From the NCBI RefSeq assembly GCF_009914755.1, contig NC_060932.1: DNA of 64,000 nucleotides; one strand, written 5' to 3'. Made by a program: the position numbers and the translations under genes. Shown in pieces: positions 19,514 to 27,121 of the stretch (position 1 is its first letter; each line of letters starts with the position of its first letter). The notes beneath the pieces are model-generated. The model was not told the origin of the DNA. It did not search any database and saw only the letters and a list, made by a program, of their open reading frames with translations. The stretch comes from the human T2T-CHM13v2.0 reference genome, Homo sapiens.

Positions 19514-19738
<225 letters not shown>

Positions 19739-24324: not shown

Positions 24325-25503
24325 TTTTTTAAAATTGCCTTTTTCCATAGGTTTTGGTGGAACACATGGTATTTGGTTACATGAGTAAATTCTTTAGTAG
24401 TGACTTGTGAGATTTTGGTGCACCCATCACCTGAGCAGTATACGCTGAACCCAATTTGTAGTCTTTTATCCCTCACTCCCTTCCTACCCTTTCCCCTCCG
24501 AGTCCCCAAAGTCCACTGTATCCTTCTTATGCCTTTGCATCCTCATAGCTTAGCTCCCATTTATGAATGAAAGCATACGATGTTTGGTTTTCCATTCCTG
24601 AGTTGTGTCACTTAGAATCATAGTCTCCAATCATGTCCAGGTTGCTGCAAATGCCATTAATTCATTCCTTTTTATGGCTGAGTAGTATCCCATCATATAT
24701 ACGCACACACACCACAGTTTCTTTATCCACTCATTGATTGATGGGCAATTGGGCTAGTTCCACATTTTTCCAATCGTAAATTGTGTTGCTATAAACATGC
24801 GTGTGCATATCTTTTTTGCTTAATGACTTCTTTTCCTCTGGGTAGATATCCAATAGTGGAATTGCCAGATCAAATGGTAGTTCTACTTTTAGTTCTTTAA
24901 GACCTGAAACTATAAAAATTCTAGAAGATAACATCAGAAAAACCCTTCTAGACATTGGCTTAGGCAAAGATTGTATGACCAAGAACCCAAAAGCAAATGC
25001 AACAAAAACAAAGATAAATAGGTGGGATTTAATTAAACTAAAGAGCTTTTGCACAGCAAAAGTAACAGCAGAGTAAATAGACAACCCACAGAGTGGGAGA
25101 AAATCTTCACAATCTATACATCTGACAAAGAATTAATATCTAGAATCTACAAGGAACTCAAATTAGCAAGAAAAAAAACTCATCAAAAAGTGGGCTAAGG
25201 ACATGAATAGACAGTTCTCAAAAGAAGACACACAAATGACCAACAGACATATGAAAAAATGCTCAACATCACTAATGATCAGGGAAATGCAAATCAAAAC
25301 CACAATGCTCAAAATGCACAAATGATCAAAATGCACAAATGCAAATCAAGACCACAATGCTCAAAATGCACAAAGCCACCTTACTCCTGCAAGAATGACC
25401 ATTATCAAAAAAATAAAAAAAATAGATGTTGGCATGAATGCAGTGAAAAGGTAACACTTCTACACTGCTGTTGGGAATGTAAACTGGTACAACCACTATG
25501 GAA
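24325..25503 (-). mobile_element. 5'-truncated L1PB-type element with 5' inversion (24325-24900 minus, 24900-25503 plus)
   Basis: L1 3' end on minus abuts ORF2 sequence on plus; approximate TSD tacat.t.ttatctt. Confidence 0.85.
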
Positions 25504-25608
25504 TACATTTATTATCTTGACTTTCACATATGCCTGGCACATAGAGACTAAAAAGGAAAAGTTACTTTTCTTCCTGTTTTCCCTCTCTCATTTAAAACCA
25601 TCCTCCTT

Positions 25609-26695
25609 CTGCACTCCAGCCTGGGTGATGGAGCAAGACCTTGCCTTTTAAAAACAAATTAAGTACTTTTTTTTTGAAAGGAAAACATTTATTTATTTAC
25701 TTCCTCTGCAGTTTTCCTGACTGCTACATTTCATAAGAAGGGATTGTTTATGAGGGTCAAGGAGCTGGAGGCCTGGGGAGGAGCTGGTGTTTTTGTTCAA
25801 GTTTGAGGGTCCTGGAGCTGGAGCCCAGGGGAGGAGCCGGTGCTGCACTGATGTTGCAGGGTCGTGGAGCTGAAGATCCCAGAGGAGCCGGTGCTGCTAT
25901 TCTAGCTTGAGTTTTGTAGAGCTGGAGACCCAGGGAGAAGATGGTGCTGCTGTTCTAATTTAAGGATCATGAAACAGAAGAGCCACACAGGAGCTGGTGC
26001 TGCTGCTGTTCAGATCTGAGGGTGCTGGAGCTGGAGCCTGGGGGTGGAACTGGTGCTGCCTTTGAAGTCTGAGGGTCATTGATCGGGAGGTCCAGGAAGG
26101 AGCTGGTGCTGCTGTTCTAGGGTGAGAGTTGAGGAGCTGCAGACCCAGCGAGGAGCCATGTTGTTGTAGTTCCAGGGTCAGGAAGCTGGAGACCCAGGGA
26201 GGAGAGGTCTTGTTCTAGTTTGAGGTTCATGGAGCTGCAGACCCAAGGAGGAGCAATGTTGTTGTAGTTCGAAGGTCAGGTAGCTGGCAACCCGGGCAGG
26301 AGAAGTCTTGTTCTAGTTTGAGGGTCGTGGAACTGCAGACCCAGGGAGGAGCAATGTTGTCGTAGTTTGAGGGTCTGCAAGCTGGCGACCCGGGGAGGAG
26401 AGGTCTTGTTCTAGTTTGAGGGTCGTGGAACTGCAGACCCAGGCAGCAGCAATGTTGTTGTAATTCGAGGGTCTGGTAGCTGGCAACCCGTGGAGGAGAG
26501 GTCTTGTTCTGGTTTTAGGGTCGTGGAGCTGCAGATCCAGGCAGGAGCAATGTCGTTGTAGTTCAAGGGTTCGGAAGCTGGCGAGTCAGGGAGGAGGAGA
26601 GGTCTTGTTCTAGTTTGAGGGTCGTGGAGCTGCAGACCGAGGCAGCAAATTAATTACTTAATTAAATTAATTAAATAAAAATAAAGCCATCCTTC
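25609..26695 (+). mobile_element. Severely 5'-truncated Alu 3' end whose A-rich tail is split by the satellite insertion
   Basis: ctgcactccagcctgggtga...gcaagacc; tail resumes at ~26660; approximate TSD aaa.ccatcct.ctt. Confidence 0.6.
25669..26645 (-). repeat. D20S16-like satellite array (~7 x 53-bp units then ~10.5 x 49-bp units as 98-bp dimers) with retroposition hallmarks
   Basis: gagggt-anchored periodicity measured directly; family name inferred from recalled 53-bp and 98-bp unit sizes and the CAGCT/AGCTG core. Confidence 0.75.
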
Positions 26696-26866
26696 TTGAA
26701 AAAGGCCTGCCTAAAAAAATCCCGCCCTCTAGTGATCATTTCTAAGCTTTGTTCTGGTTCTGATGGTAGCTGTTAATACCTCTCCATTGTAGCCATCTAA
26801 CTGTTCATTGTTCATTGCTCACAGGTCCCCAATTATAGATCAAAGATGGTGTTAAAAGTTTGATAG

Positions 26867-27121
<255 letters not shown>

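What the first reader, a model, noticed from the sequence alone, without database searches (positions are those of the whole stretch)
25655..26659. A satellite array that appears to have arrived as a retrocopy: D20S16-like repeat with poly(A) signal, poly(A) tail and TSD
Seen: a ~900-bp GC-rich tandem array (25752-26645). Read on the minus strand it is followed by a short non-repeat 3' segment, AATAAA (plus tttatt 25688-25693) and an A9 tail (T run 25667-25675). The insert is bracketed by caaattaagtactt (25655-25668) and caaattaattactt (26646-26659), a 14-bp duplication with one mismatch, inside the A-rich tail of a truncated Alu. Known: these are the hallmarks of L1 target-primed reverse transcription, and D20S16 is a dispersed primate satellite with 53/98-bp units. 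Inference: this family spreads via a polyadenylated satellite RNA mobilised in trans by L1. It would be a non-autonomous VNTR retroposon, analogous in design but not in sequence to SVA, implying a germline- or embryo-expressed source locus.
Basis: partly seen in the sequence, partly recalled or inferred. Interest (0 to 1): 0.82.

Follow-up and report, generated by a model that had tools for sequence, protein, structure and literature searches.

The report
One-off retrocopy of D20S16 satellite RNA
A 1-kb piece of the D20S16 satellite in a FER1L6 intron is an old, dead copy made by LINE-1 machinery from a polyadenylated satellite transcript, but most of this satellite family spread by ordinary DNA duplication, not as a new mobile element.

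Summary

**This copy is a retrocopy.**
- Its closest relatives are four arrays on chr20 and one on chr7. Homology to them covers exactly window 26645..25673.
- All five run on past a shared AATAAA/CA site into a common flank.
- The window copy stops there, carries a short A run and is bracketed by a 13/14 duplication.
- It is a 5'-truncated, LINE-1-type retrocopy of the 3' end of a polyadenylated D20S16 transcript, inserted in the tail of a truncated Alu.

**The family-level claim fails.** I sorted the 20 D20S16 loci in this genome:
- 15 share at least 280 bp of flank beyond the poly(A) site.
- 2 more share the upstream flank only, so 17 of 20 are DNA-level duplicates of a unit of at least 8 kb.
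- 1 other locus, chr2:188.36 Mb, is a second, independent retrocopy from the other subfamily.
- 1 locus, on chr9, is ambiguous.

So this is not an SVA-like retroposon family. It is rare processed-pseudogene-type copying of a germline-expressed satellite RNA. The useful by-product is the RNA's strand and poly(A) site. I could not test primate empty sites or RNA-seq.

The parts
25610..25654 (+). 3' end of a 5'-truncated Alu and the start of its A-rich tail. This is the host of the insertion.
   Evidence: It matches the 3' ends of 6 other Alu-sized repeats in the window. The Alu has its own 16-bp flanking repeat, aaaaccatcctccttc at 25594-25609 and aaagccatccttcttg at 26683-26698, a 13/16 match read by eye.
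25655..25668 (.). Target-site duplication, copy next to the poly(A) tail (caaattaagtactt).
   Evidence: It abuts the A run.
25669..25675 (-). Remnant poly(A) tail, seen as T7 on the + strand. The whole T run is 25667-25675.
   Evidence: The paralogs read TTGATG... here instead.
25676..25751 (-). Non-repeat 3' segment of the D20S16 transcription unit. It holds two overlapping AATAAA (25688-25693 and 25692-25697 on +). The cleavage site CA lies at 25676/25675, 13-15 nt after the last hexamer.
   Evidence: The segment plus the first array unit (25676-25800) is 97.6% identical to chr7:57.46 Mb over 123 nt. A 115-nt version is 98% identical to three chr20 loci. The segment lies at the same array end in 17 loci.
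25752..26112 (-). 3'-proximal, degenerate D20S16 units. Each aligns one-to-one with the matching unit at the end of the source arrays.
   Evidence: Together with the 3' segment it differs from the chr20 trio and from chr7 by 7.0-7.2% over 456 nt.
26113..26645 (-). 98-bp-period D20S16 array. Its 5' end is truncated inside a unit.
   Evidence: TRF. It is collinear with the chr20 and chr7 arrays, which continue upstream. TTG is shared between target and source at the 5' junction.
26646..26659 (.). Target-site duplication, copy next to the 5' end of the insert (caaattaattactt).
26660..26682 (+). Rest of the Alu's degenerate A-rich tail.
   Evidence: The rebuilt empty site reads as one continuous Alu end plus tail.

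Best explanation
Window 25669-26645, read on the minus strand, is a 977-bp, 5'-truncated processed retrocopy.

**Proposed sequence of events**
1. A D20S16 unit of the chr20q13/chr7 clade was transcribed on its C-rich strand, through the array.
2. The RNA was cleaved and polyadenylated at a CA 13-15 nt after AATAAA, just past the array.
3. LINE-1 endonuclease and reverse transcriptase, acting in trans, nicked the + strand at tactt/aatt inside the degenerate tail of an older truncated Alu.
4. The enzyme primed on the poly(A) and copied about 1 kb before stopping.
5. Second-strand repair left a 14-bp target-site duplication.

**Consequences**
- The copy has no promoter and is inert.
- It lies in a FER1L6 intron, antisense to that gene.
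- The event is old. The terminal branch is about 0.047 changes per site, which I take to mean tens of millions of years.

**Shown and inferred**
- Shown: the homology limits, the poly(A)-site break, the duplication and the truncation.
- Inferred: the LINE-1 enzymes, expression of the source RNA in the germline, and the age.
For: 1. **Homology limits.** Homology to the five nearest loci spans exactly window 26645..25673. Identity is 89.3, 88.6 and 88.5% to chr20:50.286, 49.643 and 49.583, 84.5% to chr7:57.46 and 81.8% to chr20:49.89. The window copy is collinear with the last ~910-970 nt of their arrays plus the 3' segment.
2. **3' junction.** In the MAFFT alignment all 5 paralogs read ...AAATAAATAAATG(T/G)TTTCCTTTCAAA|TTGATGTTTCTTTTCTG. 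That is a U/GU-rich downstream element. The window copy reads ...TTTCAAA|AAAAAAGTACTTAATTTG.
3. **Flank in the other loci.** The 298 bp beyond the site in chr7 recurs at 14 other loci, 15 in all, each next to a 3' segment. It never recurs at the window locus.
4. **Duplication.** A 13/14 duplication abuts both homology limits.
5. **Target.** On the insert's sense strand the target reads TT/AAGT. That is compatible with the LINE-1 endonuclease preference TT/AAAA, which I recall rather than tested.
6. **Empty site.** Removing the insert and one duplicate restores a continuous Alu end and tail.
7. **Second case.** A locus of the other subfamily, chr2:188.36 Mb, breaks at the same site into a 23-nt A-rich tract and an unrelated flank. 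The site has therefore worked as a real poly(A) site twice.
8. **Expression.** D20S16 RNA is reported in oocytes, cleavage embryos and testis (PMC12287470, abstract and sections 6 and 9 read; PMC6545021, passages read).
Against: - The certainly untemplated tail is short, at 4-7 A.
- The endonuclease site is only an approximate match.
- No empty site in another primate could be examined.
- No source locus closer than about 7% survives. The window copy sits in an unresolved three-way split with chr7 and the chr20 trio (support 84/86).
- The 98-bp array part is 14-15% diverged from every paralog, so unit-by-unit correspondence there is uncertain.
- I saw no data on strand or polyadenylation of the present-day RNA.
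Confidence: 0.88

Rival explanations
1. D20S16 is a non-autonomous VNTR retroposon family, comparable in design to SVA, that spreads through a polyadenylated RNA mobilised by LINE-1.
For: Two loci from two subfamilies are retrocopies that use the same poly(A) site. A third locus, chr9:149.01 Mb, lacks the upstream flank and starts in an Alu tail. The source RNA is expressed where LINE-1 is active, according to PMC12287470.
Against: 17 of 20 loci share upstream and/or downstream flanks and an internal inverted piece, so they are DNA-level duplicates. A genome search with the 115-nt 3' end scored all 26 candidates and found no further tailed copy. Only 2-3 events are visible across the history of both subfamilies, which is processed-pseudogene frequency. 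There is no sign of retrocopies giving rise to further retrocopies.
Confidence: 0.06
2. Orphan LINE-1 3' transduction. A LINE-1 upstream of a D20S16 unit read through to the unit's poly(A) site, and severe 5' truncation left only the transduced satellite.
For: The end product would look identical: a poly(A)-site end, a tail, a duplication and a 5' truncation.
Against: In the fetched source-clade loci the array is preceded by at least 0.8-1.5 kb of shared non-A-rich flank and 4-6 kb of array. A transduction would therefore have to exceed about 6 kb. The 3.8-kb chr2 copy holds no LINE-1 sequence at its 5' end. I did not scan the upstream regions for LINE-1.
Confidence: 0.05
3. A DNA-level event, either a partial segmental duplication or filler DNA captured at a double-strand break. 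On this reading the repeat of the flanking 14-mer is a chance match in low-complexity Alu tail.
For: The flanks are AT-rich, low-complexity sequence, and the tail is short.
Against: The break falls at the same nucleotide (within 3 nt) as in the independent chr2 copy, 13-15 nt after a conserved AATAAA. A 13/14 match has a chance of about 2 in 100,000 per random pair. It also abuts both homology limits.
Confidence: 0.01

Closest known systems
LINE-1-mediated processed pseudogenes and retrocopies of cellular RNAs, including noncoding RNAs. I recall the mechanism. A snoRNA example, PMC1687206, was seen only in a search listing.
   Same: Ends at the source's poly(A) site, carries an A tail, has a 14-bp target-site duplication and an approximate TT/AAAA-type target, is 5'-truncated, occurs as sporadic low-copy events, and is dead on arrival.
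   Different: The template is the transcript of a tandem satellite array, not of a gene. There are no introns whose loss could confirm processing.
SVA composite retrotransposons, and the gibbon LAVA element. Structure is recalled.
   Same: A GC-rich VNTR followed by a unique 3' part, AATAAA and an A tail, mobilised in trans by LINE-1.
   Different: The insert contains only D20S16 array plus the 76-nt 3' segment, so it has no hexamer repeat, Alu-like part or SINE-R. It has no sequence similarity in the VNTR as far as I recall. There are 2-3 copies rather than thousands, and most family members are DNA duplicates.
D20S16 satellite. Sources are PMC12287470 (sections 6, 9 and 11 read), PMC6545021 (passages read) and Bowden 1995, which I know only from a reference list.
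   Same: 98-bp dimer period, 88.5-89.3% collinear identity to the chr20q13 arrays, and one of the 20 clusters on chr2, 3, 5-9 and 20.
   Different: It is the shortest cluster. It is one of only two that lack the unit's flanks and end in an A tract.
Orphan LINE-1 3' transductions (recalled).
   Same: The anatomy of the insertion would be indistinguishable.
   Different: No LINE-1 is known upstream of the source units. This was not properly tested.

Membership tests
LINE-1-mediated processed retrocopy | Homology to the source ends at the source's poly(A) cleavage site, and the genomic downstream flank is absent. | tested here: met
   In one search the flank is present at 15 loci and absent at the window locus.
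LINE-1-mediated processed retrocopy | Untemplated poly(A) tail. | tested here: met
   There is an A9 run, of which 4-7 A's are certainly untemplated. It is short, as expected for an old copy, and weak taken alone.
LINE-1-mediated processed retrocopy | Target-site duplication of about 7-20 bp abutting both ends. | tested here: met
   14 bp with a 13/14 match.
LINE-1-mediated processed retrocopy | Endonuclease-type target, TT/AAAA on the sense strand. | tested here: inconclusive
   The target reads TT/AAGT. The consensus is recalled from memory.
LINE-1-mediated processed retrocopy | Empty site in an outgroup species. | not testable with these tools
   No primate genomes are held. Only an in-silico rebuild of the Alu tail was possible.
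SVA-like VNTR retroposon family | Many copies with the same 3' end and tail, each with different flanks and duplications. | tested here: not met
   2 of 20 loci qualify, and 1 is ambiguous. 17 of 20 share flanks.
SVA-like VNTR retroposon family | Composite body with a hexamer repeat, an Alu-like part and SINE-R. | tested here: not met
   The insert holds only D20S16 array plus the 76-nt segment. SVA structure is recalled.
D20S16 satellite | 98-bp dimeric unit. | tested here: met
   TRF finds a 98-bp period with a 49-bp half-period. PMC6545021 states '98 bp dimers'.
D20S16 satellite | Homology to the chr20q13 arrays that bear the name. | tested here: met
   The chr20 loci lie within 49.571-50.286 Mb, the interval given in PMC12287470.
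D20S16 satellite | RepeatMasker or Dfam assignment. | not testable with these tools
   No repeat library is available.
Orphan LINE-1 3' transduction | A sense-oriented LINE-1 directly upstream of the source sequence. | not tested
   Only 0.8-1.5 kb upstream of the arrays was read. No A-rich LINE-1 end was seen there.

The most novel reading that the evidence does not exclude
D20S16 units are not just transcribed satellite. They are a conserved family of polyadenylated lncRNA genes, with three defining features:
- **Strand:** the RNA is C-rich.
- **Poly(A) site:** an AATAAA-CA-U/GU-rich site kept in all 12 3' ends I inspected.
- **Start:** possibly a fixed start near the internal inverted piece. 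The chr2 copy begins at the start of that piece, and the ambiguous chr9 locus about 50-110 nt inside it.

The RNA has been present in the germline of both subfamilies for tens of millions of years and has repeatedly fed LINE-1. On this reading it is a retroposon in the making.
Probability: 0.12. Interest if true: 0.6.

Novelty: new member of a known kind. Interest (0 to 1): 0.38.

Why it matters
D20S16 is described as poorly understood (bioRxiv 10.1101/2025.10.09.681516, passages read). It has recently been linked to oocyte and cleavage-stage expression and to telomere contacts in ALT cells.

The two retrocopies are fossil cDNAs and they show three things:
- which strand was transcribed;
- that the RNA was polyadenylated at a defined site just outside the array;
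- that this happened in the germline or early embryo in both subfamilies long ago.

This gives a concrete 3' end to look for in present-day RNA data. It also corrects the idea that the family disperses by retroposition, because it disperses mainly by segmental duplication.

In my searches and the passages I read, no paper links D20S16 to retrotransposition. The supplements of PMC12287470, which list the 20 elements, could not be opened and may bear on this.

Tried and rejected
- **Target-site duplication for the chr2:188.36 Mb copy.** The best local match between its flanks is 9 of 10 nt but does not abut the insert, so none is accepted.
- **Residual homology of the chr2 downstream flank to the paralog flank.** Smith-Waterman scores of 11-13 equal the shuffle mean of 11.5-12.3. 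The paralog-to-paralog control scores 242. Rejected.
- **chr9:149.01 Mb as a third retrocopy.** Its 5' junction lies in an Alu tail, inside the inverted piece. Its 3' end is lost at an unrelated sequence, and no repeat of its 5' flank lies downstream. Left ambiguous.
- **The flank as a high-copy transposon or LTR.** Only 15 genomic copies were found, so it is not a common repeat at this sensitivity.
- **The similarity of D20S16 to MLT2B4 reported in PMC12287470.** It could not be tested because no repeat library is available. Whether the AATAAA descends from an ERVL LTR stays open.
- **Dating by paralog divergence.** The chr20 trio differ by only 0.4-2%. Yet all five chr20 elements are reported in macaque (PMC12287470, section 9). 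That points to gene conversion between them, so only the terminal branch of the window copy was used.
  - No primate orthologues or RNA-seq data are held.

Full report
**1. The observation**

The window is T2T-CHM13 chr8:125,116,001-125,180,000, and the finding corresponds to chr8:125,141,655-125,142,659.
- caaattaagtactt at 25655-25668 and caaattaattactt at 26646-26659, a 13/14 match;
- a T9 run at 25667-25675;
- tttatt at 25688-25693 and again at 25692-25697;
- a 76-nt non-repeat segment at 25676-25751;
- a tandem array at 25752-26645.

Tandem Repeats Finder (TRF) scores a 98-bp period (5.4 copies, 85% matches) and its 49-bp half-period over 26113-26642. The 25752-26112 part is made of more degenerate units. 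The array is 53-59% GC against 34-41% in the flanks.

The 14-mer pattern occurs only at those two places in the window. The expected number is 0.17, and 3 of 100 shuffles reached 2. Random pairs of window 14-mers match at 13/14 or better in 4 of 200,000 draws.

The left flank from about 25610 is the 3' end of an Alu. It matches the ends of 6 other Alu-sized repeats in the window. Removing the insert and one duplicate restores one continuous Alu end plus degenerate A-rich tail.

That Alu is itself 5'-truncated and has its own flanking repeat: aaaaccatcctccttc at 25594-25609 and aaagccatccttcttg at 26683-26698, a 13/16 match read by eye. This is therefore a nested pair of insertions.

**2. What the rest of the genome shows**

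A search of the whole assembly with the 1005-bp stretch gave 156 matches in clusters on chr2, 3, 5, 6, 7, 8, 9 and 20. Together, I count 20 clusters:

| Chromosome | Positions (Mb) |
|---|---|
| chr2 | 188.36, 242.53 |
| chr3 | 0.85, 198.35, 198.41, 198.72, 200.37 |
| chr5 | 0.27, 1.53, 26.33 |
| chr6 | 151.25 |
| chr7 | 57.46 |
| chr8 | 69.75, and the window at 125.14 |
| chr9 | 149.01 |
| chr20 | 49.58, 49.64, 49.89, 50.24, 50.286 |

This matches the 20 D20S16 elements and the chromosome list in PMC12287470 (section 6 read). That paper places the chr20 elements at 49.571-50.286 Mb. The D20S16 assignment therefore holds, although no repeat library was available to confirm it.

The other clusters are 2-8-kb arrays. 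All 11 that I fetched share one higher-order structure: forward array, then a 141-273-bp inverted piece, then forward array.

The 76-nt "3' segment" is not private to the window. It sits at the same end of the array in 17 loci, the window included.

**3. The decisive comparison**

I printed the sequence around the 3' segment for ten loci, the window included. In all 9 others, the sequence beyond the segment continues into one shared flank.

The 298 bp beyond the site in chr7 recurs at 14 further loci, 15 in all. Matches are 260-298 nt long at 80-94% identity, and each lies next to a 3' segment. The window locus has none.

The upstream flank of chr7 (about 0.8 kb) is shared by 8 of the 10 other fetched loci. 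It is absent from chr2:188.36, chr9:149.01 and the window.

Downstream homology runs for 1.3-2.2 kb in several loci. Most family members are therefore DNA-level duplicates of a unit of at least 8 kb.

Homology of the window copy covers exactly window 26645..25673 and is collinear with the last ~910-970 nt of the paralog arrays plus the segment:

| Paralog | Identity to the window copy |
|---|---|
| chr20:50.286 | 89.3% |
| chr20:49.643 | 88.6% |
| chr20:49.583 | 88.5% |
| chr7:57.46 | 84.5% |
| chr20:49.89 | 81.8% |

In the alignment all five paralogs read, on the sense strand...GAAGTAAATAAATAAATGTTTTCCTTTCAAA followed by TTGATGTTTCTTTTCTGTTCAC. The window copy reads the same up to ...TTTCAAA and then AAAAAAGTACTTAATTTG.

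The break therefore lies at a CA 13-15 nt after the last AATAAA. In the paralogs a U/GU-rich stretch follows. This is the textbook layout of a poly(A) site, which I state from memory.

At the 5' end the window copy starts inside a repeat unit, whereas the paralogs continue with more array. TTG is shared between target and source at that junction. The 14-bp duplication abuts both limits.

On the sense strand the target reads TT/AAGT, close to the recalled LINE-1 endonuclease preference TT/AAAA.

Of the nine A's, up to three may be templated by the source's CAAA, and two belong to the duplication. The certain tail is therefore 4-7 A, which is weak on its own.

**4. A second, independent case**

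The cluster at chr2:188.36 Mb (about 188,355,181-188,359,036, 3.8 kb) lacks both shared flanks. It breaks at the same site...AATGAATAAATGTTTTGTTTTCAAAT, and continues with AATAAAAATAAAAATAAATAAAA and then unrelated sequence.

Smith-Waterman scores of its downstream 320 nt against four paralog flanks are 11-13. That equals the shuffle means of 11.5-12.3, against 242 for a paralog-to-paralog control. I found no convincing target-site duplication for it.

In a tree of the last 460 nt before the cleavage site, built from 12 loci, this copy falls in the chr5/chr8:69.75/chr2:242.53 clade (support 100/100). The window copy falls in the other clade, in an unresolved three-way split with chr7 and the chr20 trio (support 84/86). 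Their terminal branches are 0.058 and 0.047.

So two events, from two subfamilies, used the same poly(A) site.

chr9:149.01 Mb also lacks the upstream flank and begins next to an Alu tail. Its 3' end is missing, so it stays ambiguous.

Final tally of the 20 loci:
- 15 have the downstream flank;
- 2 have the upstream flank only (chr3:0.85 and chr20:50.24);
- 2 are retrocopies;
- 1 is ambiguous.

A genome search with the 115-nt 3' end scored all 26 candidates and found no tailed copy outside these clusters. That search missed the chr8:69.75 segment seen, so its sensitivity is not complete.

**5. Mechanism**

The best-supported reading is an ordinary trans-mobilisation by LINE-1. A polyadenylated RNA transcribed through a D20S16 array on its C-rich strand was reverse-transcribed at a nick in an Alu tail, with 5' truncation after about 1 kb.

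- Shown: the homology limits, the poly(A)-site break in two independent copies, the duplication, the truncation and the restored target.
- Inferred: the enzymes, the tissue (germline or early embryo) and the age.

For the age, the 3' 456 nt differ by 7.0-7.2% from both the chr20 trio and chr7, which differ from each other by 4.6-5.0%. The lone copy's branch is about 0.047-0.049, which I take to mean tens of millions of years.

Paralog distances are unreliable as clocks. chr20:49.58 and 49.64 differ by only 0.4-1.2%, although all five chr20 elements are reported in macaque (PMC12287470, section 9). That suggests gene conversion between them.

The 98-bp part is 14-15% diverged between the window copy and each paralog, and between most paralog pairs; only the near-identical 49.58/49.64 pair differs (1.2%). 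This fits array turnover at the source loci.

The insert is antisense to FER1L6, in the intron between exons 19557-19737 and 26983-27103. It is in the same orientation as FER1L6-AS1, within that transcript's intron (hub table). I see no reason to expect a function.

**6. Rivals**

- **SVA-like family.** Contradicted by the flank sharing in 17 of 20 loci and by the absence of any SVA parts.
- **Orphan LINE-1 3' transduction.** It would look the same but needs a read-through of more than about 6 kb from a LINE-1 that I did not see in the 0.8-1.5 kb read upstream. This was not properly tested.
- **DNA-level capture with a chance repeat.** Very unlikely, given two independent breaks at one poly(A) site and the 13/14 match abutting both limits.

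**7. Comparison and novelty**

The insert works like a processed pseudogene and meets that definition on the features I could test. It resembles SVA only in having a VNTR before a tailed 3' end.

The event type is known, so I file it as a new member of a known kind.

What is modestly new is what it says about D20S16:
- a defined transcribed strand;
- a poly(A) site kept in all 12 3' ends inspected;
- germline presence of the RNA in both subfamilies long ago.

This fits the reported oocyte, cleavage-stage and testis expression (PMC12287470; PMC6545021, passages read).

Searches for D20S16 alone (23 papers), D20S16 with retrotransposition (4 papers) and a wider term set, plus passages from three papers, turned up no statement that D20S16 copies arose by retroposition. 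The supplements of PMC12287470 could not be opened.

**8. Verdict**

Interest is moderate to low.

Noticed in passing
window 25594-25654 and 26660-26698: The host Alu is only a ~45-bp 3' stub plus its tail. It has its own 16-bp flanking repeat with a 13/16 match, so the locus is a nested pair of LINE-1-type insertions.
   Followed up: partly
window 25200-25500, with tandem repeat at 25293-25374: A LINE-1 ORF2-like fragment lies just upstream. I recognised it from memory. It carries an internal short tandem duplication of period 17 and 4.9 copies.
   Followed up: no
L031-L041 (G000 chr7:57.46, chr20:49.89 and 50.24, chr6:151.25, chr8:69.75, chr5:0.27 and 26.33, chr2:188.36 and 242.53, chr9:149.01, chr3:0.85): Every fetched D20S16 cluster holds one 141-273-bp inverted piece inside the forward array. 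The chr2:188.36 retrocopy starts within about 10 nt of the beginning of that piece. The chr9 copy starts about 50-110 nt inside it. This could mark an RNA start site or a place where reverse transcription stalls.
   Followed up: partly
G000 chr20:49,583,714-49,584,123 (+) and chr20:49,642,898-49,643,307 (-): Two D20S16 3' ends about 60 kb apart lie in opposite orientation and differ by only 0.4-1.2%. This looks like a young or actively converting inverted duplication.
   Followed up: no
all 12 D20S16 3' ends in /scratch/sense.fa (loci L031-L036, L039, L041-L044 and the window): The AATAAA, the spacing to CA and the U/GU-rich stretch after it are kept in all 12 3' ends inspected, across both subfamilies.
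   Followed up: partly
G000 chr5:0.27 Mb, chr5:1.53 Mb, chr3:198.35-198.72 Mb, chr3:200.37 Mb: These clusters are almost identical in the 3' segment and flank. From memory, they lie in the regions of the SDHA/SDHAP segmental duplications. I did not check this.
   Followed up: no
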